Positions 266-34,299 are shown, numbered from the stretch's first letter. The stretch is DNA of 34,564 nt from an uncultured Verrucomicrobiota bacterium (GCA_964459315.1 CAYWMH010000002.1:1-34564); one strand, 5' to 3'. A program made the numbers and translations. The notes: a model not told the origin generated them from the letters alone.

Positions 266-279
266 CGCTTGGCCAAGCG
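266..279. repeat. iterated palindrome CGCTTGGCCAAGCG (14/14), intergenic
   Basis: Exact self-complementary 14-mer read directly from the sequence. Confidence 0.95.
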
Positions 280-317
280 ACAAATTGATTTGGAGAATCC
301 ATCGGATGGAACGATAC

Positions 318-340
318 CCTCTCCCCCGTGGGGGGAGAGG
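318..340. repeat. GC-rich hairpin (REP-like element) CCTCTCCCCC-gtg-GGGGGAGAGG
   Basis: 10-bp perfect stem with a 3-nt loop, in the spacer between two minus-strand genes. A similar hairpin lies at 423-443. Confidence 0.6.
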
Positions 341-422
341 ACAAAGGTGAGGGGAAATTGTTTTGCTTGTACAACCGTTAACGCAAAACGTTAACCTTTC
401 ACCCTCATCCGGCCTGCAGCCA

Positions 423-443
423 CCTTCTCCCTGAGGGAGAAGG
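423..443. repeat. GC-rich hairpin (REP-like element) CCTTCTCCC-tga-GGGAGAAGG
   Basis: 9-bp perfect stem with a 3-nt loop, about 50 nt downstream of the cytochrome stop on the minus strand. No U-tract follows, so it is not a classical terminator. Confidence 0.55.
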
Positions 444-494
444 GATGCTCCGCAACGTTTGAGACGACGGGTGGAACTCGTCCCTCCCACGCAT

Positions 495-2402
495 TCACTC
501 CCGCAGGCGCATGGGGCGGTTGTTGCGGGTGCGGATGAGGCGCTGCACCCGGTCGACATCGCGGACACCCTCGGCGTTAAGCAACACCGGGCCGGCCGGC
601 TGGGGGAGGTCGATTCGCTGCTCTCGCAGCCAGATCTCGATCGCCTCCTTCTGATTGGCCAAGCGCTTGGCCTCGGCGGCGACGAAGTCGTACTCAAAAG
701 ACCCAAAACCGGGCTGCTTCACCAGGGCTTTGTGCGCCATGTAGCGGACGGCGGAGTAAGGGTCGTTCAAGCTATCGGCCAGCAGGGGCGACTGCCAGCC
801 ACTACCGCTGGCCTCGAGCGCCGGCTGCCAGCCCATGTGCCACGCAGCGAGCGAGCGCTGGCCGGCGTCGCCGTTGAGCAGCCACAGCACCGAGGCGGCG
901 GTTGTGCGGTGTTCGGCGGGCACGGCCGGCTTGGCCCGGCCGTTGCGCTTGGCCAACTGCTCGGCCGTCCAGTCGAGCGTCTTGTCGAGGTGGCACAGGT
1001 TGCAGGCGTTGGGCCGGCCGGTCTTGAGTGTGGTCGCCACGTCGGGTGTCTCGATTGTGTGGCCGCGGATCGCCTTGAGTAACCCGTATGCGGTGTGCGG
1101 CATATGGCAGTTGTAACAGTTGCTGCCGGCTGAGTCGGCGGCGTGGCGCGTATGCCTGGTGAGGTCGGCGGCCATGTCGGAGTGGCATTGGAGGCACGCC
1201 CGGTTGCCGCGCATGCCGCGGGCGAGCTGGTCGTTGGGATCGCTGTCGTGCATCGAGTGGCAACTGACGCACGACATTTCGCCGCGCTGGTGGCAGGGCG
1301 ACTCGAGCAAGCCGTTGTACTCGCGGCCGGTCACGCGGATGTGGCCGTCCGGCCAGAAAAAGTCGCCGAGGATGTCCGGGTTTTTCTCAAGCACCGGTTT
1401 CAGCCACGGTTGCTCGTCCAACTTGGATGGTTGGATGATGGGGGTGGTTGCCGCGAGGTCGTCGCCGGGCCGGTATCGGAAGCCGTGCGCGGTCCATTCC
1501 TCGCTTTTGTCGAACCACTTCATCCCGTGGCAGGAGCCGCAAACCTGCGAGCTGCGGACCGGGTCGAGATCGGCCGGCTGTATGATGGCCAACGGCTCGA
1601 CATCGAGCGCCGCTTGGCGTTCGGTCTCGGGCAGCTTGGCCAGGCGTTGCTGCCGATCGACGTGTCGTGCGCCCGGGCCGTGACACGCTTCGCACGAGAT
1701 GCCGAGGTCGGCCACGCGCGACGCAAAGCGTCGCTCCGCCCGGTTGGGCCTTGGTTGCGGGCCGGTGGTGTGGCAGCGGATGCAGGTCATGTTCCAGTTC
1801 TCCTTGCTGAGAACCGTGTGCGGGTCTCGGATGAACAGGCTGTTGCGCGGCGCCCAGCGTTGGTCGTCGATGAGCCACCCGAACGGGAAGCCAATCTGCA
1901 GATTGCCCATCATGCCGGGCAGCCAAAAGACCTGCATGTGGTGCGAACCGGTGACCATGCCGAGCCGCAGGTGCAACGCCTCGGGATCGTGGCCGTCGGG
2001 AGCGGCTTTGGCCGCGTCAACGCTCTCGATGGTCGCCCAATATTCATCGCCGCGCCGGTGCATCGTGAAGCGCTCGCCCTGGAACTCGTACGCTTGGCCG
2101 TCGAACGCCGCCCGGACCGTGTCGGGCGACATGAGCTGGGTCATGCTCCGGTGATACGAGGCGTGCCAACTTCGGTGTTCACCAGCATGGCAGGCCGGGC
2201 AGGCGCCGGCGCCGGAGTACTGGTTGTCTTCACGGCTTAAGGGCTGGGGGGCGGCGGGGCGGGGCGGCGCTTGGCCAAGCGCTTGGCCGGTCTGCTCGGG
2301 CGGTCCGGTGAGGTTAATGGCCAGCAGGACAACGACGACGATCGACAGGGCAAGCAACCATCGGAGGGTGGATGGGTGACATTTTGGATCGTCGCCGTGC
2401 AT
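495..2402 (-). CDS. membrane-anchored multiheme (octaheme) c-type cytochrome with HEAT-like C-terminal region
   Basis: 635-aa ORF with eight CxxCH motifs (CPACH, CIRCH, CEACH, CGSCH, CVSCH, CLQCH, CYNCH, CNLCH). N-terminal hydrophobic anchor WLLALSIVVVVLLAI. C-terminal DPYSAVRYMAHKAL is HEAT-like. Confidence 0.85.
   Translation of the reverse strand: MHGDDPKCHPSTLRWLLALSIVVVVLLAINLTGPPEQTGQALGQAPPRPAAPQPLSREDNQYSGAGACPACHAGEHRSWHASYHRSMTQLMSPDTVRAAFDGQAYEFQGERFTMHRRGDEYWATIESVDAAKAAPDGHDPEALHLRLGMVTGSHHMQVFWLPGMMGNLQIGFPFGWLIDDQRWAPRNSLFIRDPHTVLSKENWNMTCIRCHTTGPQPRPNRAERRFASRVADLGISCEACHGPGARHVDRQQRLAKLPETERQAALDVEPLAIIQPADLDPVRSSQVCGSCHGMKWFDKSEEWTAHGFRYRPGDDLAATTPIIQPSKLDEQPWLKPVLEKNPDILGDFFWPDGHIRVTGREYNGLLESPCHQRGEMSCVSCHSMHDSDPNDQLARGMRGNRACLQCHSDMAADLTRHTRHAADSAGSNCYNCHMPHTAYGLLKAIRGHTIETPDVATTLKTGRPNACNLCHLDKTLDWTAEQLAKRNGRAKPAVPAEHRTTAASVLWLLNGDAGQRSLAAWHMGWQPALEASGSGWQSPLLADSLNDPYSAVRYMAHKALVKQPGFGSFEYDFVAAEAKRLANQKEAIEIWLREQRIDLPQPAGPVLLNAEGVRDVDRVQRLIRTRNNRPMRLRE
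2268..2281. repeat. iterated palindrome CGCTTGGCCAAGCG (14/14) followed by an overlapping extra half copy (to 2288)
   Basis: Exact 14-mer inside the cytochrome CDS. With the extra CTTGGCC it encodes GQALGQA. Confidence 0.95.
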
Positions 2403-2440
2403 ATAGCCCGTCCGAGGTAAAGCGCTGCGAGTTGACAGGG

Positions 2441-4506: not shown

Positions 4507-4889
4507 GATGCAATTCTCGTTTTTTAGTTAACAGTTAACAAACACTTCACCGTACGGGTAAAAGGAAACCCGAGCTTGGTGTCCGATTGAACCTTTGTCA
4601 ACGCCAAACTTAAAAAAAAATAGCACACAAAATGCCATCTTTTCCGGGGTGAAATTGGAATCAATTCGGAGTGCTAAACAGAAGCGTGGCGAGTGAAACT
4701 CACTCGTTTTGCGTGAATTTCACACAGATGAAGGTTTTTCGGCTTGAGCTGTTTCAAGTGGTTTGTCCCCGGATTATGGAATGTTTACGTTGTGGGCGCT
4801 ACCGCCCCGCGATACAAGCGTGCCGGTGGCAACGATATTGCTGGAGGCACGCCGGAGGTTGGGCGGCCCGAGAGCCGTGGCACCACTTG

Positions 4890-7115
4890 ATGAATCTTGA
4901 GAATCGACTGCTGCGCCTGCTGGCGCGCAAACAGTACGTCCCGGCCGGGGCGGACGACATCACCAAAAAACTGGGGCTTGGCCAAGCGCAGGCCGGGGAG
5001 GTGCGGCGGGAATTGCGCGGCCTCGTGCGGTCGGGCCGCGTGGTGCGCCTGCCGGATAAGCGGTTCGCGTTGCCGGCCGACGAGGACCTGGTCGCCGGGC
5101 GCATCCTCATGAACCGCCGTGGCGGCGGCCGGGTCGTGACGACCGATGCGTCGCAGCCGGCCATCGACATTTCCCCCAACGCAGCCGGCACGGCGATGCA
5201 CAACGACCGCGTGCTGGTACTGGTGGAGTCATCCCCACCACCCGCCCGCCGCCGGGCCCAGCGTCCGGCGTCGGGGCCAAGCGGCAAGGTGGTCGAGGTG
5301 CTTGAGCGCGCCCGGACGCAGGTGGTCGGCACGCTGGAGAAGTCGCGGCAGCTTTGGTACGTCGTGCCGGCCGACCCGAGGATTTCGCACGACATTTACC
5401 TGCCCAAGCTTGGCCAAGCGGGCAAGCCGAAGGCCAAGCGCGGTGACAGTGTGGTGGTTGAGATTACCGAGTGGCCGTCGCGGCACAACGCGCCGGAGGG
5501 GCGGTTGCTTGAGGTGATCGGCAGCCCAAGCGCGGCGGGTGTTGATGTCGAGTCGGTCATCCGCCAGTACGAACTACCGACGCGTTTCCCCGGCAAGGTG
5601 CAGGCCGAGGCCAGGCGGTTTGGCGCGAAGGTGACATCGGCCGATCGCAAGGGCCGCCGGGATTGCCGCAAGCATTGCGTGGTGACGATCGACCCGGTCG
5701 ATGCGCGGGACTTCGATGACGCCATCTCGCTGGAGCGGCTCGAGGGACGGCGGTGGCGGTTGTGGGTGCATATCGCCGATGTGTCGCATTACGTTAAGCC
5801 GGGGAGCGCGCTGGACAAGGAGGCGCGGCGGCGCGGCAACTCGACCTATCTCATCGACCGCGTCATCCCGATGCTGCCGGAGGCGTTGAGCAACGAGCTG
5901 TGCTCGCTCAAGCCGGGAGTCGACCGGCTGGCGCGCAGCGTGGAGTTTGTGCTGAACGATCGTGGACGGGTCGAGCAGGCGAAGTTTCACTCGACGGTCA
6001 TCTGCTCGAAACGCCGTTTTTCATATGAGGAGGCCATGGCGATCCTCAGTCGCGAACCGACCGGTGGCATTGAGCGGATGCTGCACGACGCCCATCGGCT
6101 CGCTCAAAAGCTGAGGCAGGCGCGCTTCCGGGCAGGCGCGCTCAATCTTGACATGCCGGAGCACAAGGTGCTGCTCGATGCCAAGGGCCGCGTGAGCGGA
6201 GTGCGCCGGGATGAGAGCGACGAGTCGCACCAGTTGATCGAGGAGTTTATGCTGCTGGCCAACGAGGCGGTCGCGAAGGAGATCAAGCGGCGGCGTGTCA
6301 AGGCGATCCACCGCGTCCACGAGGAGCCGGACACTGAGAAACTGGACAACCTCCGGGCGCAGGCGGGGTTGATGGGTCTGCGCGCCGGCAACCTGTCCGA
6401 CCAGAAACAGGCCGGGAAATTTCTCGCCGGACTCAAGGATCACCCGCTCGCGGATGTTTTCCGCATCGGCTACCTGCGTTGCATGAAACGGGCCTGCTAC
6501 TCAACCGAGCCGATCGGCCACTACGGCTTGGCCAAGGACGACTACGTCCATTTCACCTCGCCGATCCGCCGGTACGCCGACCTGATCGTGCACCGCGTGG
6601 TTTATCAAAGGGTCAAGCTCGACGCCGTGGCGCTGGCCACGGCGGCCGACCATATTTCGCTGACTGAGCGTAACTCCGCCGACGCCGAGTGGGACAGCAA
6701 ACTGATCAAGCTGTTGAGCCATTTGAAGCGGCAGCTCGACCGGAAAAAACCGGAGACTTACACGGCGATGGTCACCGAGGTGCGTAACATCGGCGCGATG
6801 GTCGACATCACCGAGCTGGGGCTGAAGGGCTTGGTCAAGCGCCTCAGCCTGAGCGGCGACCATTACCGGTTCGTGCCGGAGCGCGGCCGATTGGTCGGCC
6901 GGTTACGCGGCAACGAGATCGCGCCGGGCGACCAATTGAAAGTGCAGGTCGAGGATATCGACCTGCACAAGAAACAGGCCGACTTCCGCGTCGTCCCATC
7001 GAAGGTGGCCAAGGGCAAAAAGAAAAGTGCGTCCGCCCGCAAAGCGCGTCCGAAAAAATCTCCCCAGCGCAAAGGCAAACCAAGGCAGCCCAAGACCCGT
7101 CGTAGACGAAAATGA
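4890..7115 (+). CDS. rnr: ribonuclease R (3'-5' exoribonuclease, RNB family)
   Basis: Start chosen at MNLENRLLRLLARKQYV, the typical RNase R winged-helix N-terminus. RNB motifs DDAISLE and HFTSPIRRYADLIVHR are present, as are an S1-like region and a Lys/Arg-rich tail. The ORF-track start at 4671 adds 73 non-homologous residues and was rejected. Confidence 0.9.
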   Translation: MNLENRLLRLLARKQYVPAGADDITKKLGLGQAQAGEVRRELRGLVRSGRVVRLPDKRFALPADEDLVAGRILMNRRGGGRVVTTDASQPAIDISPNAAGTAMHNDRVLVLVESSPPPARRRAQRPASGPSGKVVEVLERARTQVVGTLEKSRQLWYVVPADPRISHDIYLPKLGQAGKPKAKRGDSVVVEITEWPSRHNAPEGRLLEVIGSPSAAGVDVESVIRQYELPTRFPGKVQAEARRFGAKVTSADRKGRRDCRKHCVVTIDPVDARDFDDAISLERLEGRRWRLWVHIADVSHYVKPGSALDKEARRRGNSTYLIDRVIPMLPEALSNELCSLKPGVDRLARSVEFVLNDRGRVEQAKFHSTVICSKRRFSYEEAMAILSREPTGGIERMLHDAHRLAQKLRQARFRAGALNLDMPEHKVLLDAKGRVSGVRRDESDESHQLIEEFMLLANEAVAKEIKRRRVKAIHRVHEEPDTEKLDNLRAQAGLMGLRAGNLSDQKQAGKFLAGLKDHPLADVFRIGYLRCMKRACYSTEPIGHYGLAKDDYVHFTSPIRRYADLIVHRVVYQRVKLDAVALATAADHISLTERNSADAEWDSKLIKLLSHLKRQLDRKKPETYTAMVTEVRNIGAMVDITELGLKGLVKRLSLSGDHYRFVPERGRLVGRLRGNEIAPGDQLKVQVEDIDLHKKQADFRVVPSKVAKGKKKSASARKARPKKSPQRKGKPRQPKTRRRRK
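4976..4987. repeat. iterated palindrome GCTTGGCCAAGC (12/12)
   Basis: Exact 12-mer inside rnr (encodes LGLGQAQ). Confidence 0.95.
5408..5419. repeat. iterated palindrome GCTTGGCCAAGC (12/12)
   Basis: Exact 12-mer inside rnr (encodes KLGQAG). Confidence 0.95.
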
Positions 7116-10100
7116 AACTCAAATCGAAGCAAGGGGTTGCGCTTCTTGCGGTAGCGTTGGCCGGGGTTGCACTTGTGAACCGCGACGAGTGGCAGGCGAC
7201 AGTTGCAGTAACTTCGCCGGTTCAGCCGATTGGCCAACCGGTCGTGGAGTTCGCTAAGCACTTGGCCAAGTCGGGGTCACGCTTGGTGCCGTCGGCTCAG
7301 TCGGTGCCATTGTCTTTGGCTGCGGCGCTCGACCGGGGCCAGCCGCTGCGGCTGGAATTGCCCTGGCGTGAGCCGCTCGATTTTTCGTTCCGCGATTTTC
7401 CGCTGCTCGCCGACGGATACCGCACGACGCTTGGCCAAGCCGGCCGGCTTGACGCCGAGCTGCGGGTTTTCGAGGGCCGCGCCATCGGCGGCGACGGCCA
7501 ACAGCACACCGCGACGCTGACCTTGGCCAACCGTTCCATTGCCGGGGTGGTGCGCCTGGCCAACGGCGGCCAGGTGCAGTTGCGCGGGACCGATGGTGGC
7601 CAATTCAACGCCTTGGCCAACCGGCTCCCGACGCTGACATGCGCTCGCGATCCGCGCACCGGTGCGTACCGGACGATCTCGCTCGACGGTCGCTTGGCTA
7701 AGTCGGACTGGGGCCAGGCCAAGCCGGCCCAACTCGAGCCGTCGCCGGAGTTCCCGATGATGGCCAGTTCGGGACTCGATCCGGTGACCGGCGCGCCGAC
7801 GTTGGTGCTCGGCGGCCCAGCGAACCCGCCGCGATATGAGGCGTCGCTCAAGGTGGCCACAGTGATCGTTGTGCTCGACAAGTCGGCCACCGGCTTGAAC
7901 TCGAAAAACCACCTGATGGAAGTCACCAGCCAATACCTCGCGCTGATGTCCAACGTGGCATCCATCTATGAGAATCAGCTCGGCATCCGGTTGTTGGTGC
8001 AGGAGCTGATCCTCACGCCGGATTCGGACGACTACGACGACATCCCTTTTGACGACAACGGCGGCACATTGGACGATTTTGCTGACTGGACTCAGCGTTG
8101 GCGCCCCGAGTCAACCTACGGGCAAACGGTGGCGATTCGTTTCGGTGACGGGTTGAGCGGTGGAATACTCGGAATTGCCTTCCAGAATGCACTACACACG
8201 CGCAACGGGGTCGGAGTGTTGCGCACCGGCTTCGGCTGGGCATTAACCAGCCATGAGATGGGGCATGTGTTCGGTTCATCCCACTCGCTCGGGGGCATCA
8301 TGAACGGGCAGTATACGACCGAGGAACGGTCGTTTTTCAAGGACATCGAGGGGCAGGAATACACGGCGGCTACCCAGGTTTACAACCGGGCCAGCGGACG
8401 GCTCGGTGGGCCGGCGGCGATGCGCAACCCGGACGAGATGCCGTTCGCCGTGGACGACGTCGCCTGGGCTGCACCGGGCGAGCGTGTCCGCATCGACGTG
8501 TTGGCCAACGACCTTAAAAAGGTTTATCGCGGGCAGGAAAATAGCCTGACACTTGCGGAGGTCGGACGCGTCACGCCGCGCTACGCCGGCTCGGTGGCGG
8601 TTGAGGTGGGTCAGGCGGTGTTCACACCGTCGAGCGGGTTCACTGGCACGGCCTGGTTCAGCTACTCGGTGCGGGGCGATGTCGGGCGTGGGTGGCTGCA
8701 CAAGGGCGACGTGGCTGTGGTGGTCGGCGATCCCGAGGGCAACGCCCACGAGTTGGATCTGGCCGTGGGACAGGCGCGCACCCTCAAGCTGCCCGGCAAC
8801 GGCAGCATCACCCAATTGCGCCCGCCGAAACAGGCGGCGATGCACGAGATGATCAGCGACTCCGCGGTGTACATCGTGCGCGTCAACGCGGATGCCAGCG
8901 GCAGCGAGACCATCCGGTACCGCGCCGGGGGCAAGCGCCAAATCCTTACGCTGAATTACATCAAGGAGCCGCCGATCGCCGAGCCGGATGTGCTGTACCT
9001 CAGTCCTGGCGAGTCGGTCAGTTTCAACCCGCTGGCCAACGACCACGCGGCCGGGCTGCGCGGCGCGTTCAAGACCGAGCCGGTCCTCGCCGTCGGAACC
9101 ACAGGCGAGGGGCGGGACGGGCAGGATTATTTCCCCGGCGGCTTTCGTCTTTACAGCGCACGCTCGAAGGCCAGCAAACTGGGCAGCCTGACCGTGCATC
9201 GCTCGCCGGTGATGCGCGACGGCCGCCGCCGCAACGACCCGAACGGCCTGCTGACGTTCAAGGCCAACAGTTCGGCCAGTGGCACCGGGGTGATCGAGTA
9301 CACAATCGAGGACGCGCTGGGCCAACGGGCCACCGGTACGGTGCAACTCATCGTGGACGGTGCCAGCGACACGCTCCTTGGCGCGAGTGAATACGCGCGC
9401 GGCTGGGTGCCGACCCACGGACGCGACGACAACGCGTGGACTGCGCCTGCGTTCAACGACAAATCCTGGAAGCGAGGCCGTCAGGGAGCCGGCTACGAAC
9501 GCAGCAGCGGCTATCAGTCTCTCATTAGTTCCGCGCTCAACTTTCGCTCGCAAATGTACAACAAGAATGAATCGCTTTACCTGCGGTATGCCTTCGATGT
9601 CGATGACCCGGACGCGGTCGGGCAACTCCGCCTCCGGATGAAATACGACGACGGTTTCGTCGCCCACCTCAACGGCCAACGGGTGGCCTCCGCCAATGCG
9701 CCGACCAACCTGCGGTGGGATTCCGGTGCCACCACCCTGCATGACGACTCGTTGGCGGTGCGGTACGAGTCGTTCGACATCACCGCACACAGGGAACGGT
9801 TGCGCCCCGGTAAAAACATCCTCGCCATTCACGGCCTGAACAGCGGCCTGACCAGTTCCGACATGCTGATCGTCGCCGAGATTGTCTCGACTGACACCGG
9901 CAAGTTGCGCCTGCCAGAGATCGTCTGCGAATCGCCGGCCGAGCGCACGCCGGAGTCGGTCACGCTCGCCGGCCGCCTGGCCGGGGTGGCGGCCAACACG
10001 AAAGCCTTTTTTGTCTGGGGCAATACCGACGGTGGCCCGGATGCCGCCAAGTGGGATCACTCCAGCGAGGCATCGCTGGGAGAGGATGGTCGGCTCCGCC

Positions 10101-24883: not shown

Positions 24884-24918
24884 CGGATAAAAAAACTTCG
24901 CACTTTCGGAAGACCCGT

Positions 24919-26019
24919 TCAGCGGCGGGCGAACAGTTTGCCTGGAAGTTGCCTGGCCATGCGCTTTATCTCCAGCCCGAGCAACGCCACCGAGACCGTC
25001 GCCACCGGCAGCCCGCTGTTGGCTATAACCGTGTCGATCGGTTGCTCGGTGGCATCGAGGATATCCAGCACGGCCTGCTCGTGGTCCGTGAGGTTGGCCA
25101 GCGGTACCGGCTCCGCGGCGTCCGCTTGACCAAGCGCTTGGCCAAGCGCCAGATGCTCAAACTCGGCGAGAATGTCCTCGGCGTTTTCGCAAAGTGCGGC
25201 TCCGTTGCGGATCAGGTTGTGGCAGCCCCGGCTTTGCGGCGAGTCGATCCGACCCGGCACGGCGAACACCTGCCGGTTGTTGTCGGCGGCCATGTTGGCG
25301 GTGATGAGCGAGCCGCTTTTCAGGTCGGCCTCCACCACCACGCTGCCAAGCGTCATTCCGGCGACGATGCGGTTGCGGATCGGGAAACTCTGCTTGTCGC
25401 CCTTCCGGTTGAACGGGAACTGGGTGATCACCGCGCCGTTTTCGATGATGCGCTCGTACAGTTCCGCGTTCTCCGCCGGGTAAACGATGTTGATCCCGGT
25501 GCCGAGCACGGCGATCGTTCGGCCCTTGGCCGAGAGGGCGCCTTGGTGCGAGGCGGAATCGATGCCGCGCGCGCCGCCGCTGACTACCGTGACACCGTGG
25601 CCGGCGAGTTGGTAGGCCAGTTTGCGGGCGGCGTCTTGCCCGTAATGCGTCGTGCGCCGCGCACCGACCATCGCGATGCTGTTTTTGTCCTCCGGCAGCA
25701 GGCGCCCCTTCACGTAAAGGACGATCGGCGGATCGTAAATCTCACGGAGCAGCTCGGGGTACTCGTCGTCGTCATGAAAAACGAGTCGCGCGCCAAAGTC
25801 GTCGGCGCGCTTCAACTCTCCAGCCAGGTCGGTGGTGGATTGCCACTTGACAATCGTACCGGCTAGGTCGTCGCCGATGCCCTTGACGCGTGTGAGGGCC
25901 GCGCGGCTGGCCTGCAACACCTTCGTGGCTTCACCAAAAAACTCGAGCAGTTGCCGCACGCGAACCGGCCCGATCCCCTCGAGCAGGTTCAACACAACCA
26001 AAGCCTCGCGCGCGTCCAC
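24919..26019 (-). CDS. dprA: DNA processing protein DprA (Smf)
   Basis: 366-aa ORF with VVSGGARGIDSASHQGAL, VLGTGINIVYP and VVVEADLKSGSLITA, plus a C-terminal winged-helix-like region. Confidence 0.9.
   Translation of the reverse strand: MDAREALVVLNLLEGIGPVRVRQLLEFFGEATKVLQASRAALTRVKGIGDDLAGTIVKWQSTTDLAGELKRADDFGARLVFHDDDEYPELLREIYDPPIVLYVKGRLLPEDKNSIAMVGARRTTHYGQDAARKLAYQLAGHGVTVVSGGARGIDSASHQGALSAKGRTIAVLGTGINIVYPAENAELYERIIENGAVITQFPFNRKGDKQSFPIRNRIVAGMTLGSVVVEADLKSGSLITANMAADNNRQVFAVPGRIDSPQSRGCHNLIRNGAALCENAEDILAEFEHLALGQALGQADAAEPVPLANLTDHEQAVLDILDATEQPIDTVIANSGLPVATVSVALLGLEIKRMARQLPGKLFARR
25135..25148. repeat. iterated palindrome CGCTTGGCCAAGCG (14/14), overlapped by a 13/14 copy at 25123-25136
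   Basis: Exact copy in dprA. The tandem pair encodes ALGQALGQA. Confidence 0.95.
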
Positions 26020-27230: not shown

Positions 27231-28856
27231 TCACTTTTTCACCGGCTGGCCAGGTTTTATGGTGTGAATGGCGTTAACGGGGTGGATATCGAGGATGTTC
27301 GGGTGGATGCCGCCGATGCGGTCGGGGTCGTAAATATTGATGCCAACGTAGAAAAACAGCGGTGCGATCGGCAACTCATTGGCGATGAGAATGGTCTCGG
27401 CCTGACGGAACAGTCCGTTGCGCTTGGCCAAGTCGGGTGTGGCGTTGGCGAAGCGGATGAGTTGGTCGTAGTCAGCGTTGGCCCAGCCGGTGCGGTTGTT
27501 GCCGTTCCGCGCCATGAACATGTCGAGAAAGGTGTTGGGGTCGTTGTAGTCGCCGATCCAGCTACTGCGGGTGATGTGGTAGTCTAGGGCGCTTTGGGCG
27601 GCGAGGTACACCTTGTGTTCCGCCTGGCGCAGCTTGACCTGGATGCCCAGTGTCTCGCGCCACATGTGCTGCAACTCGACCGCGATGTTTTTGTTCAACG
27701 GGCTGGAGTTGAACAGGTACTCGAAGTCGCGCGGAAACAGTTTGCCGCCTGGATAGCCGGCCTCGGCGAGCAGTCGCTTGGCGAAGTCGGGATCGTGCAC
27801 CGGGCCGCTTGGCGAGGTGTAGTCACCAGTGCCGGGCGGGACGAAGTGGCCGGCCGGCCTCTCGCCGCCCTTGGTGTATTTCGCAACTAGGCGTGCCTTG
27901 TCGATGGCCAACGCCATCGCCTTGCGGACGCGCGGATCGTCGAGCGGTTTTTTCGTGGTGTTGAACCGCACGAAGTAGGTGCCGAGGTAGTCGAATCGGT
28001 GAAAGTCGGGCCTCCGGCTGAGGGCATCGAGCAGCTCTGTCGGCACAAGGCCCTTGTCCCAGATGATGTCGGCCTGGCCGGCTTCGTACAGGTTGATAGC
28101 TGTTTCCGGGGTCTCCACCGGCAGAAAGTCGATGACTTCGTTTCGTGTGTTGGCCGCGTCCCAGTATCGTTCATTCCTGCGGAGGCGAATCCGATCGCGC
28201 ACCCGCCAATGTTCGAGCGTGTGCGAGCCGCTCACCGGCAGCCGCCGGCTGAGGCACCATTGGTCGCCGTGCCGTGCGATCGCCGTTTCCGGTACGACGG
28301 CCAGCGTCCAGAACGCGCACAACTCAATAAAGAATGGAGTGGGGGCGGCCAGTTCCACGCGCACGGTTTGGTCGTCGACCGCGCGCACTCCAAGCCGGCT
28401 GAGGTCGGTGAGTTCGCCGCTATTGATGGCCTCGGCATTTTTCACGTAATAGAGCATCCCGGCGTAGTCGCTGGCGGTGGCAGGATTGACGGCACGCCGC
28501 CACGAGTAAACCACGTCGTGCGTCGTGATCGGCTCCCCGTTCGACCATTGAAGGTCGTCGCGCAGGTGAAAGGTGTAAACCAGGCCGTCGCCGGAGATGT
28601 CCCAGCGCTTGGCCAAGGCCGGCTCGGCCTGGGCGGTGACGGCGTTAAAGCGGGTGAGTCCTTCGAACAGCGCCGAGACGATGCGACCATCCGACTGGCT
28701 GGTGATGATCGCCGGGTCGAGCGACTCGGGGTCAGGGCCGTTGATGATCACGAAGTCGGCCGGTTCGTGCTGCTGAAAACAGCCGGCTTGGCCAAGCAGG
28801 CAGAGGCACAAAAAAAGCGTCCCCAGCCGATGCACAGGAACGCCGTTGAAAGTCAT
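27231..28856 (-). CDS. ABC transporter substrate-binding lipoprotein, family 5 (oligopeptide/dipeptide OppA/DppA-like)
   Basis: 541-aa ORF with a lipobox-like LLGQAGC. The length and conserved blocks (FHLRDDLQWSNGEPITTHDVVYSW, YFVRFNTTKKPLDD) are typical of SBP_bac_5. Confidence 0.85.
   Translation of the reverse strand: MTFNGVPVHRLGTLFLCLCLLGQAGCFQQHEPADFVIINGPDPESLDPAIITSQSDGRIVSALFEGLTRFNAVTAQAEPALAKRWDISGDGLVYTFHLRDDLQWSNGEPITTHDVVYSWRRAVNPATASDYAGMLYYVKNAEAINSGELTDLSRLGVRAVDDQTVRVELAAPTPFFIELCAFWTLAVVPETAIARHGDQWCLSRRLPVSGSHTLEHWRVRDRIRLRRNERYWDAANTRNEVIDFLPVETPETAINLYEAGQADIIWDKGLVPTELLDALSRRPDFHRFDYLGTYFVRFNTTKKPLDDPRVRKAMALAIDKARLVAKYTKGGERPAGHFVPPGTGDYTSPSGPVHDPDFAKRLLAEAGYPGGKLFPRDFEYLFNSSPLNKNIAVELQHMWRETLGIQVKLRQAEHKVYLAAQSALDYHITRSSWIGDYNDPNTFLDMFMARNGNNRTGWANADYDQLIRFANATPDLAKRNGLFRQAETILIANELPIAPLFFYVGINIYDPDRIGGIHPNILDIHPVNAIHTIKPGQPVKK
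28786..28797. repeat. iterated palindrome GCTTGGCCAAGC (12/12)
   Basis: Exact 12-mer within the signal-peptide coding region of the binding protein (encodes LLGQAG). Confidence 0.95.
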
Positions 28857-30167: not shown

Positions 30168-31400
30168 TTATTTGTCAGCCAAGGCGTCGACGCCGGGCAA
30201 CTCCCGGCCCTCTAGAAACTCGAGGCTCGCGCCGCCGCCGGTGCTCATGAAGGTGACTTGGTCGCCAAGGCCGGCCTTGTTCAGCGCCTTCACGCTGTCG
30301 CCGCCTCCGATGATGCTCTTGGCCCCATTGGCGGTCGCCTCGCAAACCGCCTTGGCCACGGCAAAGGTGCCGCCAGCGAACCGCTCATCCTCGAAGATGC
30401 CCATCGGGCCATTCCACAAAATTGTCCCGGCCCCGGCGATCACGCCGCAAAATTCCTCCGCCGATTTGGGGCCGATGTCGACACCCTCCACGTCGTCCGG
30501 GATATTTTCGCTGTCGTTCACGCGGTGATCGCCAAACGCGAATTTGCCGTCGATCTCCGTCGATATGGCGATGAGGTTGTCGCTCGGGATCAAAAACTGC
30601 ACGCCGCACCCGGCCGCCTTGTCGAGAGCCGCCTGGGCGACATCCACCTTGTCCCGCTCGACGAGTGATTTGCCAACAGTGAACCCTTTGGCCAGCTTGA
30701 ACGTGTACGCCATCGCACCGCCGATGAGGATCGTGTCGGCCTTGTCAAGCAGGCGGTCGATCACCTTGATTTTGTCGGAAACCTTCGCGCCGCCGAGGAT
30801 GACGACGAACGGGCGCTTCGGTGATTCCAGTTCATCGCCGAGAAACTGCAATTCACGCTCCATCAGCAGGCCGGCCACGCATTGGCCGCCCCGGGCGTTG
30901 AGCACGGCGGCCACGCCGGCGGTTGAGGCGTGGGCGCGGTGGGCCGCGCCAAAGGCGTCGTTCACGAACACGTCGGCATCGGCGGCGAGTTGCGTGGCAA
31001 AGGCCGGTTCGTTGGCCTCCTCCTCGGCGTGATAGCGGACGTTTTCCAGTAGCAGCAGGCCGCCATCCTCTAGCTTGGCTGCTGCGTCGGTTGCCGCTTG
31101 GCCAACGCACTGGTCGCAGAAGGCGACCGGTTGGCTGATCAACTCGGAAAGCCGGTCGGCGACGGGGCGGAGACTCATCGACGGCACGCGCTCACCCTTG
31201 GGCCGGCCAAGGTGCGCGGTGAGCACCACCTTTGCGCCACTCTCGGTTATCGACCGCAGCGTCGGCAGGGTGGCGCGGATGCGGGTGTCGTCGTTGATCC
31301 GCATCGTGCCGTCCTTGTCGGCCATCGGCACGTTGTAATCGACGCGTGCCAGGACGCGCTTGCCCCGCAGGTCGATGTCGTTGATGGTTCGCTTGGCCAT
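30168..31400 (-). CDS. pgk: phosphoglycerate kinase
   Basis: [32 protein letters not shown] and [13 protein letters not shown] motifs. Confidence 0.95.
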
Positions 31401-31511: not shown

Positions 31512-31525
31512 CGCTTGGCCAAGCG
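31512..31525. repeat. iterated palindrome CGCTTGGCCAAGCG (14/14), intergenic (pgk/carA divergent region)
   Basis: Exact 14-mer, 60 nt upstream of the carA ATG. Confidence 0.95.
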
Positions 31526-32763: not shown

Positions 32764-32790
32764 CCTTGGCCAAGCGCGGCGGAGTCTGGA

Positions 32791-33270
32791 CTACTTTTTG
32801 ACCCTTCGGAACTTGCCCGGGTTGACGAACAGCTTCTTGTTTCGCCTTTGCTTCAGGAAGGAGTGCGCCAGCGACTCTGAGGTCTTAAACTCATCATCCA
32901 CCAGTTCCTCATTCAGCAGCCTGATTTCGAGTTCCTCGTTTTCCAGTCGATACGAGGCGACGTGGTTCAGGTTTTTCTCCCCTTTGCTCGGTGGGCCTTC
33001 GTTGGTGCCGATGGCCTAAAGCTGGACGCATGACACGCCACCGTGCTTGATGGGGTAGGCACAGAAGTACATGGCGTCCTCCCCGATCGGTTAATGAATG
33101 ATGTACTCGGTGGCGGAGAAATTCAGGATCATCATCCGTTCCTTTTTCTCTTTACCGTTATCCGGGACGATCTCCCACAGAGCAAGCAGGGATCAATCAA
33201 CCGGGATGGTGTGATCCTCCGTCAGGCGTGCTTCATACTCGCAACCATAAAAAAACAGGACAGCCCCCAT
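32791..33270 (-). pseudogene. decayed ORF (about 160 codons) with three in-frame stops (TGA, TAA, TAG); family not recognised
   Basis: A single minus-strand frame reads MGAVLFFYGCEYEARLTEDHTIPVD*SLLALWEIVPDNGKEKKERMMILNFSATEYIIH*PIGEDAMYFCAYPIKHGGVSCVQL*AIGTNEGPPSKGEKNLNHVASYRLENEELEIRLLNEELVDDEFKTSESLAHSFLKQRRNKKLFVNPGKFRRVKK*. Stops are at the complement of 33193-33195, 33091-33093 and 33016-33018. The composition is protein-like and the G+C is low. The segments lack Met starts, so they are absent from the ORF track. Confidence 0.5.
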
Positions 33271-33287
33271 TAAAAAGTGCTGTCCTG
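33249..33287 (-). terminator. rho-independent terminator after rplI
   Basis: On the minus strand: CAGGACAGC-14 nt loop-GCTGTCCTG followed by T7, about 25 nt after the rplI stop at 33313. Confidence 0.8.
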
Positions 33288-33312
33288 CTTATCGACATGA
33301 TGTGATTGTTGG

Positions 33313-33822
33313 TTAACTCGCGGGAGCCTCTTCCGCGGTGGCCTCGGATTCCTCTTCCGGAAGCGGGTTGCTGCTCTCCACGCGCACCTTGAGGTTGGTG
33401 CTGACCTCAGAATGCAGCCGCAATTCGACGTCGTGGTCGCCCACCGTGCGGATCGGCTCCACGAGGTTAACCTTACGGCGGTCGAGCTTGATCTCGAACT
33501 GCTCATTGAGCTGCTCGATGATGTTTGCCGGGGTGACCGAGCCGTACATCTTGCCGGTGTCCGGGGGCTTGGCCTTGATGGGCGATATGAGGTGCCTGAA
33601 GCTGGCGGCCAGTTCCTTGGCGTCCTTGGCCTCGCGGATTTCGCGATCGCGCCGCACCTTGCGCAGGGCCTCGAGGCGGCGTTCGTTGCCCTCGGTCAGC
33701 GGGATAGCGAGTCCGTGTGGCAGGAGGTAGTTGCGGGCATAGCCGGTGGCCACATTCACTTGGTCGGATTCCCCGCCCAAGCCTTCCACATTCTTGATTA
33801 AAATAACGTCAGTTTTTGCCAT
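33313..33822 (-). CDS. rplI: 50S ribosomal protein L9 (with a short acidic C-terminal extension)
   Basis: MAKTDVILIKNVEGLGGESDQVNVATGYARNYLLPHGLA is the canonical L9 N-domain. Confidence 0.93.
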   Translation of the reverse strand: MAKTDVILIKNVEGLGGESDQVNVATGYARNYLLPHGLAIPLTEGNERRLEALRKVRRDREIREAKDAKELAASFRHLISPIKAKPPDTGKMYGSVTPANIIEQLNEQFEIKLDRRKVNLVEPIRTVGDHDVELRLHSEVSTNLKVRVESSNPLPEEESEATAEEAPAS

Positions 33823-33852
33823 GAGTCGCTTGTGGTGTGAATTGGTCTTTGC

Positions 33853-34299
33853 TCAAAACGGGACGTCGTCGTCCCCGGGGGCGTCCACGGGTGGGCCGCC
33901 TGCTGGCTCGGATGGGGGAGGGGCGGACTGCTGCGGGGCAGCGTCTCCGCCGCCCGCTTGGCCACCGCCACCGCCAACGAAGGTGAATCGCTCGAGCACG
34001 ACGCCGAGTCGGCTCCGGTTTTGGCCGGTGTTTTTGTCCTCCCACTGGTCGAGCTTGAGTCGGCCTTCGACTAGGATTGGGCGGCCTTTTTGCATGTATT
34101 GGCCAATCGTCTCGGCCTGTTTGCCAAAGGCATCGACGTCCACAAAGGTGACTTCCTCCTTCTGCTGTCCCTCGGCGTCGCGCCAGACGCGGTTGACGGC
34201 GAGGCCCATCTTGGCGATCGCGGTGCCGCTGGGCGTGTAACGCAGCTCGGGGTCGCGGGTCAGGTTGCCCATCAGGATTACTTTGTTGAAGCTTGCCAT
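33853..34299 (-). CDS. ssb: single-stranded DNA-binding protein
   Basis: OB-fold N-terminus MASFNKVILMGNLTRDPELRYTPSG, a Gly/Pro-rich linker and an acidic tip DDDVPF. Confidence 0.93.
   Translation of the reverse strand: MASFNKVILMGNLTRDPELRYTPSGTAIAKMGLAVNRVWRDAEGQQKEEVTFVDVDAFGKQAETIGQYMQKGRPILVEGRLKLDQWEDKNTGQNRSRLGVVLERFTFVGGGGGQAGGGDAAPQQSAPPPSEPAGGPPVDAPGDDDVPF

What the first reader, a model, noticed from the sequence alone, without database searches (positions are those of the whole stretch)
266..34106. Hyper-iterated perfect palindrome (C)GCTTGGCCAAGC(G), a HIP1-like genome-wide element
SEEN: I counted these by eye. The exact 14-mer CGCTTGGCCAAGCG occurs at 266, 2268, 10268, 15712, 16757, 19660, 25135 and 31512. 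The exact 12-mer GCTTGGCCAAGC also occurs at 4976, 5408, 7429, 23323 and 28786. The 10-mer CTTGGCCAAG also occurs at 6527, 7261, 10204, 10339, 16793, 21589, 21664, 27423, 28608 and 32765. The bare TTGGCCAA core also occurs at 655, 949, 7230, 7523, 7613, 8501, 10874, 15200, 16875, 17649, 24712, 31098 and 34099. That totals about 36 cores, 23 10-mers and 13 12-mers in 34.5 kb. One-mismatch or indel relatives are also present, for example at 6829, about 7691, about 20168, about 23273 and 25123. A rough base-composition estimate, assuming about 62% G+C, predicts about 0.4 copies of the 8-mer and about 0.004 of the 12-mer. This estimate is not a formal model. The motif lies in genes on both strands and in spacers. 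It is read in all three frames: RLAKR in nuoF and the 1372-aa gene, ALGQA in nuoJ, dprA and the cytochrome, and AWPSA in nuoG. The constraint is therefore on DNA, not on a peptide motif. ESTABLISHED: cyanobacterial HIP1 (GCGATCGC) behaves similarly and has been linked to DNA methyltransferases. Uptake sequences (Neisseria DUS, Pasteurellaceae USS) reach similar densities but are not palindromic. The core contains TGGCCA (BalI/MscI-type) and GGCC (HaeIII-type) sites. INFERENCE: this may be a lineage-specific iterated palindrome maintained by a sequence-specific process. Candidates are a methylation or mismatch-repair bias, a binding site for a nucleoid or segregation protein, or a recombination or uptake signal (dprA is in the window). 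I know of no description of this motif.
Basis: partly seen in the sequence, partly recalled or inferred. Interest (0 to 1): 0.85.

Follow-up and report, generated by a model that had tools for sequence, protein, structure and literature searches.

The report
Hyperabundant phased palindrome in marine Verrucomicrobiota
A 10-16 bp perfect palindrome, (GCG)CTTGGCCAAG(CGC), occurs about once per kilobase across the genomes of one marine Verrucomicrobiota clade, is kept there at the DNA level even at the cost of changing conserved proteins, and its neighbouring copies sit whole numbers of DNA helical turns apart, which points to an unknown protein that binds them cooperatively.

Summary
TTGGCCAA occurs 36 times in 34.6 kb, against 0.8 expected from dinucleotide shuffles and 4.2 from a synonymous-codon shuffle. 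The 12-mer occurs 13 times and the 14-mer 8 times, against about 0 expected. Copies lie in all three reading frames and in spacers, with no conserved sequence beyond 16 bp.

The window is from a marine Verrucomicrobiota (Limisphaerales-like) lineage. The motif is equally dense in relatives down to 74% nucleotide identity. It is also dense in 69 unrelated metagenome contigs (571 kb), so it is genome-wide. It is absent from 80 other Verrucomicrobiota nuo loci.

Copies are conserved about twofold or more above phase-matched controls. Conserved residues of Nuo proteins were replaced to fit the motif. One nested sub-lineage is losing it.

New here:
- Copies cluster 50-200 bp apart.
- Their distances fall on integer multiples of about 10.4 bp (power 14.5, n=199, phase 0°). 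Control palindromes and control peptides lack this signal.
- One phage-like contig carries the motif.

Best reading: a HIP1/uptake-sequence-class element recognised by a dimeric protein that binds cooperatively on one DNA face. The protein and its function remain unidentified.

The parts
266..279 (.). perfect 14-mer CGCTTGGCCAAGCG, outside the called genes
655..662 (.). core TTGGCCAA in the multihaem cytochrome gene (RLANQK); followed by GCGC and a partial second core TTGGCC at 667-672
949..956 (.). core in the cytochrome gene (QLAKRN)
2268..2281 (.). perfect 14-mer (16-mer GCGC..GCGC) in the cytochrome gene (ALGQAP); partial tandem TTGGCC at 2283-2288
4976..4987 (.). 12-mer in the RNase R gene (GLGQAQ)
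5408..5419 (.). 12-mer in the RNase R gene (KLGQAG)
6527..6536 (.). 10-mer in the RNase R gene (GLAKDD)
7230..7237 (.). core in the 1372-aa M12 peptidase/Big_9 gene (PIGQPV); gained in the window lineage relative to L081 and L082
7261..7270 (.). 10-mer in the 1372-aa gene (HLAKSG)
7429..7440 (.). 12-mer in the 1372-aa gene (TLGQAG)
7523..7530 (.). core in the 1372-aa gene (TLANRS)
7613..7620 (.). core in the 1372-aa gene (ALANRL)
8501..8508 (.). core in the 1372-aa gene (VLANDL)
10204..10213 (.). 10-mer in the 1372-aa gene (TLAKGI)
10268..10281 (.). 14-mer in the 1372-aa gene (RLAKRG); core present in 5 of the 6 aligned clade genomes
10339..10348 (.). 10-mer in the 1372-aa gene (LLAKPQ)
10874..10881 (.). 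core in the 1372-aa gene (RLANGK)
15200..15207 (.). core in nuoF (NFGQGL); the most common outgroup peptides are NFGGGL and AFGGGL, so a conserved Gly was replaced by Gln
15712..15725 (.). 14-mer in nuoF (RLAKRN); core conserved in all 6 clade genomes
16757..16770 (.). 14-mer in nuoG (TAWPSA); core conserved in all 6; outgroup peptides are mostly xxWTAA-like
16793..16802 (.). 10-mer in nuoG (RLAKAE); outgroup peptides include KLKQAP and KLRKAA
16875..16882 (.). core in nuoG (KLAKRF); conserved in all 6
17649..17656 (.). core in nuoH (GLGQPL); the most common outgroup peptide is GLLQPL
19660..19673 (.). 14-mer (16-mer) in nuoJ (ALGQAL); the most common outgroup peptide is ALGKLL
21589..21598 (.). 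10-mer in nuoL (RLAKAL)
21664..21673 (.). 10-mer in nuoL (NLAKLA)
23313..23324 (.).
24712..24719 (.). core in nuoN (VAWPTR)
25124..25148 (.). tandem pair in dprA: one-mismatch 12-mer GCTTGACCAAGC (25124-25135) directly followed by the perfect 14-mer/16-mer (25135-25148; ALGQAL)
27423..27432 (.). 10-mer in the SBP_bac_5 gene (DLAKRN)
28608..28617 (.). 10-mer in the SBP_bac_5 gene (ALAKRW)
28786..28797 (.). 12-mer in the SBP_bac_5 gene (LLGQAG)
31098..31105 (.). core in pgk (CVGQAA)
31512..31525 (.). 14-mer between the pgk start (31400) and the carA catalytic domain; probably in the divergent spacer
32765..32774 (.). 10-mer starting 2 nt after the carA stop codon (intergenic)
34099..34106 (.). 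core in ssb (TIGQYM)

Best explanation
The motif is a genome-wide, lineage-specific protein-recognition site of the same general class as cyanobacterial HIP1 and the Neisseria/Pasteurellaceae uptake sequences. The consensus is a 16-bp palindrome, s-C-G-C-TTGGCCAA-G-C-G-s, whose information content falls off symmetrically from the centre. That is the footprint expected of a homodimer reading two CGCTTGG half-sites (inference).

Shown:
- The constraint acts on DNA, not on peptides or codons.
- It is maintained above neutral expectation across lineages down to about 74% nucleotide identity.
- It has overwritten conserved amino acids.
- It is relaxed in one nested sub-lineage.
- It also operates on at least one phage-like genome.
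- Neighbouring copies are clustered 50-200 bp apart, at integer multiples of about 10.4 bp.

Inferred: copies on the same face of the helix are bound cooperatively, by bridging or looping of dimers, by an abundant sequence-specific protein. The array then serves as a sequence-encoded mark of resident DNA. Its role could be nucleoid organisation or sequestration, or recognition by the uptake and recombination machinery. Copy number is held near 1 per kb by selection and/or a biased conversion process that depends on that protein. The protein, any methylation of the TGGCCA/GGCC core, and the cellular function are not identified.
For: Enrichment beyond composition, dinucleotides and codon usage.

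All frames plus spacers, with tripeptides LAK, LAN, LGQ, WPS and AWP enriched 3-8 fold as a consequence.

No extended element; symmetric decay of information from -4 to +11 relative to the first base of the core.

Sharp optimum: 463 perfect 10-mers against about 304 for all one-off variants together.

Genome-wide and clade-wide. Syntenic relatives have 1.0-1.2 cores per kb (L081, L082, L087, L088). In the metagenome scan, 69 of 120 stretches carrying the 16-mer are motif-dense (571 kb). In the pooled set there are 607 cores against 34.7 expected. The motif is absent from 80 other Verrucomicrobiota nuo loci.

Conservation of window cores above phase-matched 8-mers: L082 13/20 against 7.4, L087 12/20 against 5.2, L088 9/19 against 3.2.

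Non-synonymous convergence in conserved proteins: NuoF NFGGGL to NFGQGL, NuoD CLDKLP to CLAKLP, NuoJ ALGKLL to ALGQAL, NuoH GLLQPL to GLGQPL. Presence patterns are patchy and homoplasious among 41 orthologous sites.

Lineage-specific relaxation: L089 has 0.69 and L086 0.34 cores per kb, and L089 shows no excess conservation (5/19 against 6.0), although L089 branches inside the clade.

Clustering: 70 adjacent gaps of 50-100 bp against 28 expected, and 69 against 51 for 100-200 bp.

Helical phasing:
- best period 10.4 bp, power 14.5, amplitude 0.27, phase 2 degrees, n=199 pairs in 542 kb of non-redundant DNA
- none of 2000 jittered nulls, with the maximum taken over 9-12 bp, reached the observed power
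- bootstrap over loci gives 10.25-10.9 bp
- both random halves replicate the signal
- the signal persists to about 130-200 bp
- it is absent for six other palindromic 6-mers or 8-mer pairs, the one-off 8-mers, and non-core TGGCCA
- it is absent for non-motif L[AG][KNQRE] and hydrophobic-small-polar tripeptides in the same ORFs (amplitude 0.05 and 0.008)

A phage-like contig (terminase, DnaB-like helicase, DnaD-like loader, exonuclease) carries 8 cores in 13.7 kb with the typical flanks.
Against: No candidate binding protein, methyltransferase or Vsr was found. Motif regexes and tblastn with E. coli Dcm and Vsr against about 0.9 Mb of clade DNA gave nothing. This is weak negative evidence, because the sample is a small fraction of several genomes.

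The period of about 10.4 bp equals 3.5 codons. A protein-structure origin (heptad or amphipathic helices tolerating L-A-K and L-G-Q) therefore cannot be excluded by period alone. It is disfavoured only by the negative peptide controls and by persistence beyond 100 bp.

The periodicity rests on 199 pairs from pooled metagenome fragments of several species, not on one complete genome.

No known nucleoid or segregation protein has thousands of near-perfect 10-16 bp sites (my own knowledge), so selection for binding alone may not explain the abundance.

Clustered multi-nucleotide changes at motif sites between the window and L081 were only about 3-fold enriched (3 of 38 clusters), which is not significant.
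Confidence: 0.45

Rival explanations
1. DNA uptake or transformation 'watermark'. The motif would be recognised on incoming DNA by the type IV pilus/competence machinery, or would act Chi-like during recombination. It would spread by molecular drive: preferential uptake and recombination of motif-bearing alleles, as in DUS/USS and as now proposed for HIP1.
For: Density of about 1 per kb, all frames, proteome distortion and patchy turnover between relatives match what is described for USS/DUS (PMC1939737; abstract of PMC2817400 seen). HIP1, the closest palindromic analogue, raises natural transformation up to more than 100-fold when methylated (10.1101/2024.09.10.611283) and has been proposed as a phylum-wide uptake sequence (10.64898/2026.06.24.733823). 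The window encodes DprA and pilin-like N_methyl proteins. A pilus-borne receptor could also favour same-face pairs.
Against: Known uptake sequences are asymmetric, not palindromes, and show no reported helical phasing (PMC1939737 for the asymmetry; the rest is my own knowledge). There is no marked intergenic or terminator enrichment (88% of cores lie in 91% ORF DNA). DprA and pilin-like genes are ubiquitous in this phylum, and competence is not known for it. A phage-like contig carries the motif, which uptake drive explains only if that contig is a prophage.
Confidence: 0.22
2. Methylation-coupled repair ratchet (Elhai-type model). An orphan methyltransferase acting on the TGGCCA or GGCC core, together with a methyl-directed or very-short-patch repair activity, would convert near-matches into matches. 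The motif would then accumulate mutationally in any DNA replicating in these cells.
For: In cyanobacteria, HIP1 and alternate HIPs co-occur with cognate methyltransferases, and a methyl-dependent repair model has been proposed (PMC4390886). The core contains TGGCCA and GGCC. TGGCCA alone occurs 79 times against 11 (base composition) or 28 (codon shuffle). The motif is present on a phage-like contig. It decays in one sub-lineage, as expected if one enzyme were lost.
Against: The deamination products of the central GGCC (CTTGGTCAAG and CTTGGCTAAG) are neither depleted nor strikingly elevated among one-off variants: 13 and 11, against 2-10 for each transversion at those positions. A 6-bp enzyme site does not predict graded information out to 16 bp, nor helical phasing. 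The spacing is clustered with an excess of long gaps, not even as an MMR-coverage model predicts. No m5C methyltransferase or Vsr was found in 0.9 Mb (weak evidence).
Confidence: 0.18
3. The motif is real, but the ~10.4-bp phasing is a by-product of protein structure. Copies would be tolerated mainly where Leu-small-polar tripeptides fit, and such positions recur every 3.5-3.6 residues in helices.
For: 10.4-10.5 bp equals 3.5 codons. About 88% of copies are coding. In all three frames a hydrophobic codon (Leu or Trp) sits at the start of the core. A redundant outgroup control showed some 10.5-10.8 bp signal, but those loci are orthologous to each other, so that control is pseudo-replicated.
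Against: In the same non-redundant ORFs, non-motif L[AG][KNQRE] pairs (n=276) have amplitude 0.05, and hydrophobic-small-polar tripeptides (n=14071) have 0.008 at 10.4 bp, against 0.27 for the motif. The amplitude is still 0.33 at 70-130 bp, that is 23-43 residues apart, which is longer than typical helices. The bootstrap period of 10.25-10.9 bp is centred at 10.35, not at the alpha-helical 10.8. The signal is also present for pairs in different frames.
Confidence: 0.2
4. By-product of codon usage, dinucleotide bias or a selected peptide motif.
For: L-A-K and L-G-Q are common, tolerated tripeptides, and GCC, GGC and AAG are preferred codons.
Against: The codon-shuffle null gives 4.2 against 34 observed. 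TTG is only 20% of Leu codons, yet it is used in 19 of 36 LA[KN] sites. Copies use three frames plus spacers. Outgroup proteins carry different residues at those positions.
Confidence: 0.01
5. Copies of a short mobile or REP/MITE-like element, or an assembly artefact.
For: High copy number and a palindromic sequence.
Against: There is no sequence conservation beyond 16 bp. Copies sit in frame inside conserved single-copy genes at orthologous positions. The motif is seen in independent assemblies from ENA, NCBI, JGI, Logan and TARA.
Confidence: 0.01

Closest known systems
HIP1 (GCGATCGC) and alternate HIPs of cyanobacteria
   Same: Both are perfect GC-rich palindromes at about 1 per kb. Both are strongly over-represented, occur in coding DNA in all frames and in spacers, and are conserved above neutral expectation. 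Both have weaker symmetric flanks, both are lineage-specific with secondary losses, and neither has an agreed function (PMC4390886, PMC5861425; here).
   Different: The sequence, the phylum (Verrucomicrobiota) and the footprint (10-16 bp against 8-10 bp) all differ. No cognate methyltransferase has been identified here. Short-range clustering and ~10.4-bp phasing are seen here. In my test of HIP1 on Nostoc PCC 7120 plasmid alpha (400 kb, 250 sites) there was no 50-200 bp clustering and no 10.4-bp signal. With only 38 pairs, that periodicity test is underpowered. The HIP1 periodicity reported in the literature is on a scale of tens of kb (PMC5861425).
DNA uptake sequences (Neisseria DUS, Pasteurellaceae USS)
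   Same: Density of about 1 per kb, occurrence in genes in all frames with distortion of the proteome, gradual gain and loss between relatives, and clade specificity (PMC1939737; abstract of PMC2817400).
   Different: DUS and USS are asymmetric and not palindromic, and are enriched in non-coding DNA (PMC1939737). Uptake bias is demonstrated for them and is untested here.
Dam GATC sites read by SeqA (Enterobacteria)
   Same: A palindromic site read by a dimer that needs two copies on the same helical face and forms higher-order complexes. This gives a mark of resident DNA. Basis: my own knowledge, not tested here.
   Different: GATC is 4 bp and, to my knowledge, not hyperabundant. Neither methylation nor a SeqA-like protein has been shown here.
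Chi sites
   Same: An over-represented short motif that marks self DNA for the recombination machinery. A Chi-like role has been suggested for HIP1 (10.1101/2024.09.10.611283).
   Different: Chi is asymmetric, strand-oriented with replication, and about 5-fold rarer (my own knowledge). A palindrome cannot carry orientation.
parS / Noc-binding / matS-type palindromic chromosome-organisation sites
   Same: 14-16 bp palindromes bound by dimeric proteins that bridge DNA (my own knowledge).
   Different: Those occur about 10-100 times per genome, not thousands of times, and are not embedded throughout coding sequence.

Membership tests
Highly iterated palindromes (HIP class, sensu Elhai 2015 / Xu et al. 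2018) | Perfect palindromic oligomer at least 15-fold over-represented genome-wide, at about 1 per kb | tested here: met
   The 8-mer is 19-fold and the 10-mer 182-fold enriched in the window. In 596 kb of pooled clade DNA there are 607 cores against 34.7 expected, and 463 10-mers against 2.0.
Highly iterated palindromes (HIP class, sensu Elhai 2015 / Xu et al. 2018) | Not explained by codon usage or peptide selection; present in all frames and in non-coding DNA | tested here: met
   Codon shuffle gives 4.2 against 34 observed. Frame counts are 19/12/3 plus intergenic copies.
Highly iterated palindromes (HIP class, sensu Elhai 2015 / Xu et al. 2018) | Copies conserved between genomes more than comparable oligomers | tested here: met
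   13/20 against 7.4, 12/20 against 5.2, and 9/19 against 3.2 expected from phase-matched 8-mers.
Highly iterated palindromes (HIP class, sensu Elhai 2015 / Xu et al. 2018) | A cognate (orphan) DNA methyltransferase for the embedded site is present in the genome | tested here: inconclusive
   No m5C, N6 or N4 methyltransferase motif hits and no Dcm or Vsr homologue were found in about 0.7-0.9 Mb of clade fragments. No complete genome was available.
HIP1 proper | Sequence GCGATCGC in a cyanobacterial genome | tested here: not met
   GCGATCGC occurs 3 times in the window. The host is Verrucomicrobiota.
DNA uptake sequences (DUS/USS) | Asymmetric 9-12 bp motif in both orientations | tested here: not met
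   The motif is a perfect palindrome with a symmetric logo.
DNA uptake sequences (DUS/USS) | Preferential uptake or transformation of motif-bearing DNA by a competent host | not testable with these tools
   This needs uptake assays. Only DprA and pilin-like genes were seen.
DNA uptake sequences (DUS/USS) | Excess in non-coding DNA or terminator pairs | tested here: not met
   In the window, 2-3 of 36 copies are intergenic and 7% of the DNA is intergenic. In the pool, 88% of cores lie in 91% ORF DNA.
REP / MITE-type dispersed repeats | Longer (20-40+ bp) imperfect palindromic units, intergenic, with conserved flanks | tested here: not met
   Information is confined to 16 bp. Copies lie inside conserved genes.
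Restriction-modification target | Site avoided (under-represented) in the host genome | tested here: not met
   TGGCCA occurs 79 times against 11-28 expected, and GGCC 400 times against 300.
Chi / architecture-imparting skewed motifs | Strand-asymmetric motif with replication-oriented skew | tested here: not met
   A palindrome reads identically on both strands.

The most novel reading that the evidence does not exclude
A marine Verrucomicrobiota clade encodes in its primary sequence a dense array of helically phased, paired binding sites, about one cluster per 1-3 kb. An unknown abundant dimeric protein would bridge or loop DNA at these sites. This would be a sequence-programmed chromatin-like or 'self-DNA' marking system, strong enough to rewrite conserved proteins and copied by at least one phage. 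It would be the first HIP-type element outside cyanobacteria, and the first with a structural signature that points to how such elements are read.
Probability: 0.35. Interest if true: 0.9.

Novelty: new variant of a known kind. Interest (0 to 1): 0.78.

Why it matters
Hyperabundant short motifs such as HIP1, DUS and USS are rare. Their origin and function have been debated for 30 years, and HIP1 has so far been treated as a cyanobacterial peculiarity. An independent element with a different sequence in another phylum shows that the phenomenon is recurrent.

This example offers two handles that HIP1 has not given. The first is a same-face, ~10.4-bp phasing of neighbouring copies, which predicts a cooperative DNA-binding reader that can be fished out biochemically. 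The second is a nested sub-lineage in which the motif is decaying, which allows the responsible gene to be found by comparative genomics.

It also matters in practice. The motif distorts amino-acid sequences of core proteins. It is a clade-specific k-mer signature useful for binning and for phage-host linking. It would probably be relevant for any future genetic system in these uncultured marine bacteria.

Tried and rejected
1. Exact look-up of two window proteins in the contig index found nothing. I reached relatives through homologues of the 1372-aa protein instead.

2. The single genome-contig scan, with NuoF as query, returned only outgroups at 70-83% identity with no motif. This was useful as a negative control, but it gave no complete genome of the clade.

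3. I searched for a cognate methyltransferase or Vsr. Sequence-motif regexes on all ORFs of 74 loci gave only chance NPPY-like hits. tblastn with E. coli Dcm and Vsr gave nothing below E=0.3.

4. I suspected that motif sites are hotspots of clustered multi-nucleotide replacement, for example nuoD TGCTTGGCCAAGCT against TGCCTCGCCGCACT between genomes 95% identical. Genome-wide, 38 such clusters exist in 15 kb and only 3 are at motif sites. I rejected this as a specific effect.

5. A dialect switch in the motif-poor L089/L086 lineage is rejected. The same motif is still their top k-mer, only rarer.

6. Another HIP-like palindrome in relatives (ATCGCGAT, 10 times in L016) turned out to be mainly a 43-bp tandem array.

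7. The outgroup peptide control for periodicity was discarded, because those loci are orthologues of each other and so pseudo-replicated. I replaced it with a control inside the non-redundant clade ORFs.

8. A hairpin or cruciform role is unlikely. Single-strand folds are weak: -3.3 kcal/mol for the 14-mer and -5.5 for the 16-mer, with z about -1.8.

9. Literature searches for the motif string and for iterated palindromes in Verrucomicrobia or Planctomycetes found no description.

Full report
**Observation.** The window contains 36 copies of TTGGCCAA, against 0.76 expected from dinucleotide-preserving shuffles (largest 7). It contains 13 copies of GCTTGGCCAAGC and 8 of CGCTTGGCCAAGCG, and no shuffle produced either. 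Under a second-order Markov model the 8-mer is 19-fold and the 10-mer 182-fold enriched. The half-site GCGCTTGGCC is itself enriched 58-fold.

I annotated 27 genes: a multihaem cytochrome, two pilin-like N_methyl/DUF1559 proteins, RNase R, a 1372-aa M12-peptidase/Big_9 protein, nuoB to nuoN, dprA, an HMGL-like enzyme, an SBP_bac_5 protein, secG, tpiA, pgk, carA, rplI and ssb. Shuffling synonymous codons within each gene gives 4.2 +/- 1.9 cores (maximum 12 in 500 shuffles) against 34 observed in genes. The same null gives 0.86 against 21 for the 10-mer and 0.25 against 12 for the 12-mer.

Copies are read as L-A-K/N (19), x-G-Q (12) and W-P (3), and 2-3 are intergenic. The corresponding tripeptides are themselves 3-8 fold over-represented. 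TTG is only 20% of Leu codons, yet it is used in 19 of 36 LA[KN] sites. The constraint is therefore on DNA, and it spills over into protein sequence.

**Anatomy.** I built a logo from 514 non-seed copies in 596 kb of clade DNA. Information is present only from -4 to +11 relative to the first base of the core: s(0.14 bit) C(0.29) G(0.34) C(0.95) TTGGCCAA G(0.88) C(0.41) G(0.25) s(0.17). Beyond that there is nothing. So it is a 16-bp palindrome with graded, symmetric flanks, not the core of a longer repeat. The perfect 10-mer (463 copies) outnumbers all thirty one-off variants together (about 304). As single strands the 14-mer and 16-mer fold only weakly, at -3.3 and -5.5 kcal/mol.

**Who has it.** NuoF places the window in Verrucomicrobiota, among Limisphaerales/Pedosphaera-like MAGs, with a best match of 83%. 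None of the 80 related nuo loci (about 1.2 Mb) has more than 3 cores or any 12-mer.

Homologues of the 1372-aa protein form a graded series. Their contigs show the following:

| Locus | Protein identity | Cores / length | Note |
|---|---|---|---|
| L081 | 94% | 30 / 24 kb | |
| L082 | 83% | 29 / 24 kb | NCBI GCA_014382705.1 |
| L087 | 73% | 25 / 24 kb | |
| L088 | 64% | 18 / 16.7 kb | TARA |
| L089 | 77% | 12 / 17 kb | reduced density |
| L086 | 76% | 5 / 14.7 kb | reduced density |
| L001 | 59% | 1 / 20.7 kb | 42% G+C |

A metagenome scan for the 16-mer returned 120 stretches, and 69 of them (571 kb, mostly marine) carry at least 3 cores at 0.4 per kb or more. These stretches are almost all non-homologous to each other and to the window. 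The motif is therefore genome-wide in a marine clade spanning at least about 74% nucleotide identity.

**Evolution.** In a 16-kb six-genome alignment, 41 distinct core sites exist. Only 3 are shared by all six genomes. The rest are patchy, and many patterns are incompatible with the tree (for example 110010, 011001). The genomes lacking a copy usually carry a one- or two-off version such as CTGGCCAA or TTGGCCAG.

Window cores are retained in relatives more often than phase-matched 8-mers: 18/20 against 14.2 in L081, 13/20 against 7.4 in L082, 12/20 against 5.2 in L087, and 9/19 against 3.2 in L088. In L089 the figure is 5/19 against 6.0, which is no excess. L089 branches between L087 and L082, so the maintaining process appears to have been weakened secondarily in the L089/L086 lineage. 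Their top k-mer is still the same motif, so this is not a new dialect.

At motif positions in conserved Nuo subunits, the other Verrucomicrobiota loci carry different residues: NuoF NFGGGL against NFGQGL, NuoD CLDKLP against CLAKLP, NuoJ ALGKLL against ALGQAL, NuoH GLLQPL against GLGQPL, and NuoG KLKQAP against RLAKAE. Proteins were changed to accommodate the DNA motif. An apparent excess of clustered multi-nucleotide changes at motif sites did not hold up (3 of 38 clusters).

**Spacing (new).** In the pooled loci, adjacent copies are clustered. There are 70 gaps of 50-100 bp against 28 expected and 69 against 51 for 100-200 bp. Gaps of 200-800 bp are depleted and gaps of 1.6-3.2 kb are in excess. 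Exactly 12-bp tandems (TTGGCCAAGCGCTTGGCCAA) occur 13 times.

Distances of 25-260 bp show a sharp spectral peak at 10.4 bp:
- Power is 14.5 and amplitude 0.27, with n=199 after removing eight homologous loci.
- The phase is 2 degrees, so distances are integer multiples of the period.
- None of 2000 nulls, in which distances were jittered by multiples of 3 with the maximum taken over 9-12 bp, reached this power.
- A bootstrap over loci gives 10.25-10.9 bp (median 10.35).
- Two random halves give power 6.1 and 9.5 at 10.35-10.4 bp.
- The amplitude is 0.39 at 13-70 bp, 0.33 at 70-130 bp and 0.23 at 130-200 bp, and the signal is gone beyond 260 bp.

Six other palindromic 6-mers or 8-mer pairs, the one-off 8-mers, and TGGCCA outside the core show nothing at this period.

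Because 10.5 bp equals 3.5 codons, I tested the protein-helix alternative. In the same non-redundant ORFs, non-motif L[AG][KNQRE] tripeptides (276 pairs) have amplitude 0.05, and hydrophobic-small-polar tripeptides (14,071 pairs) have 0.008. An earlier outgroup control was discarded as pseudo-replicated. I conclude, with moderate confidence, that the phasing is a DNA-level property: neighbouring copies lie on the same face of the helix.

**Mechanism.** A symmetric 16-bp footprint implies a homodimeric reader. Same-face clustering peaks at 5-12 turns and is depleted below about 25 bp apart from the overlapping 12-bp tandem. That is the pattern expected for cooperative binding, looping or bridging.

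Even coverage, as a mismatch-repair strand-signal model would predict, is not seen. Deamination products of the central GGCC are neither depleted (as VSP repair predicts) nor strongly elevated (as an m5C hotspot predicts). No methyltransferase or Vsr was found in about 0.9 Mb of sampled clade DNA, but this is weak evidence.

IMG/VR scans found chance-level single copies in about 1 Mb of viral stretches (0.17 cores per kb, which includes the seed copy in each stretch). The exception is one 13.7-kb phage-like contig, L304, which encodes a large terminase, a DnaB-like helicase, a DnaD-like loader and an exonuclease. It has 8 cores against 0.28 expected, with typical flanks. Whatever maintains the motif therefore also acts on, or is mimicked by, at least one virus or prophage.

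My preferred reading is a cooperative protein-binding array that marks resident DNA, at about 0.4 for that specific mechanism. An uptake or recombination watermark stands at about 0.2, and a methylation-repair ratchet also at about 0.2. These three are not mutually exclusive.

**Comparison with known systems.** The closest is HIP1. It shares abundance, palindromy, frame independence, conservation and lineage-specific loss (PMC4390886, PMC5861425). Recent work links HIP1 to methylation-dependent enhancement of natural transformation (10.1101/2024.09.10.611283; 10.64898/2026.06.24.733823).

The differences are the sequence, the phylum, the longer footprint, the unidentified methyltransferase, and the short-range phasing. 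On 400 kb of Nostoc PCC 7120 plasmid alpha (250 HIP1 sites), HIP1 shows no 50-200 bp clustering (24 against 21.7 expected) and no 10.4-bp peak. With only 38 pairs, that periodicity test is underpowered.

DUS and USS share the density and the effects on the proteome, but they are asymmetric and enriched in non-coding DNA (PMC1939737). REP/MITE elements, restriction targets and Chi each fail a defining feature (see the membership table).

Full-text searches found no description of this motif or of an iterated palindrome in Verrucomicrobia or Planctomycetes.

**Verdict.** This is a real, robust, clade-wide feature and a new variant of the HIP/uptake-sequence kind of element in a new phylum. It has an added structural signature, helical phasing, and a natural loss-of-maintenance lineage. 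Together these make the reader protein experimentally and computationally tractable.

Noticed in passing
L304:1-13670 (IMGVR_UViG_3300032087_002358): This phage-like contig encodes a large terminase, a DnaB-like helicase, a DnaD-like loader and an exonuclease. It carries 8 TTGGCCAA cores against 0.28 expected, with host-like flanks. It is the only motif-dense stretch among 129 viral stretches, so it is probably a phage or prophage of this clade.
   Followed up: partly
L089 and L086 (whole loci): This sub-lineage is nested inside the motif-rich clade but has only 0.69 and 0.34 cores per kb, and L089 shows no excess conservation of the window's copies. It looks like secondary loss of the maintaining factor. 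It is a natural experiment for finding that factor.
   Followed up: partly
window 655-672, 2271-2288, 25124-25147: There are head-to-tail overlapping copies with a 12-bp (four-codon) period, TTGGCCAAGCGCTTGGCC. The exact 20-mer form occurs 13 times in the pooled clade DNA. It could arise by in-frame slippage or by independent conversion.
   Followed up: partly
L016:124-424: A 43-bp tandem array of 7 units, each containing ATCGCGAT, lies at the end of a Limisphaerales MAG contig. It is not a dispersed palindrome.
   Followed up: partly
L081:1-2091, L082:1-2150, L087:1-2218: A second nuoA/nuoB-like gene pair on the opposite strand, plus an FGE-sulfatase gene, lies upstream of the pilin-like and cytochrome genes. 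The clade seems to have two complex-I-type gene sets.
   Followed up: no
window 4671-20086 against L081: Differences between these two 94.8%-identical genomes are clumped: 38 clusters of at least 4 differences in 14 nt over 15 kb. This suggests mosaic divergence or recombination with diverged alleles.
   Followed up: partly
L089, L086, L082, L087: Other short over-represented words appear: GGGAGGGTCTT (5 times) and GACTTAAGTC in L089/L086, and GGAGAGGG/CCCTCTCC (6 occurrences counted over both strands) in L082 and in L087. These may be small intergenic repeats or ribosome-binding-region motifs.
   Followed up: no
window 8276-11011 (-) and 24466-25866 (+): Two very long ORFs (911 and 466 aa) lie antisense to the 1372-aa gene and to dprA. 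The 466-aa ORF was scanned and has no Pfam match. Both overlap real genes and are typical G+C-rich shadow ORFs.
   Followed up: yes
window 32764-32775; L081, L082 and L089 positions equivalent to window ~11235: Two motif copies begin within about 5 nt after a stop codon: after carA in the window, and after the 1372-aa gene in L081, L082 and L089 (one-off in L087 and L088, lost in the window). This is too few to call a 3'-end association.
   Followed up: no
L210 (IMGVR_UViG_3300048852_000059, a 744-kb contig): A very large 'viral' contig has 4 cores in the 10 kb held. It may be a giant phage or a misclassified cellular contig related to the clade.
   Followed up: no
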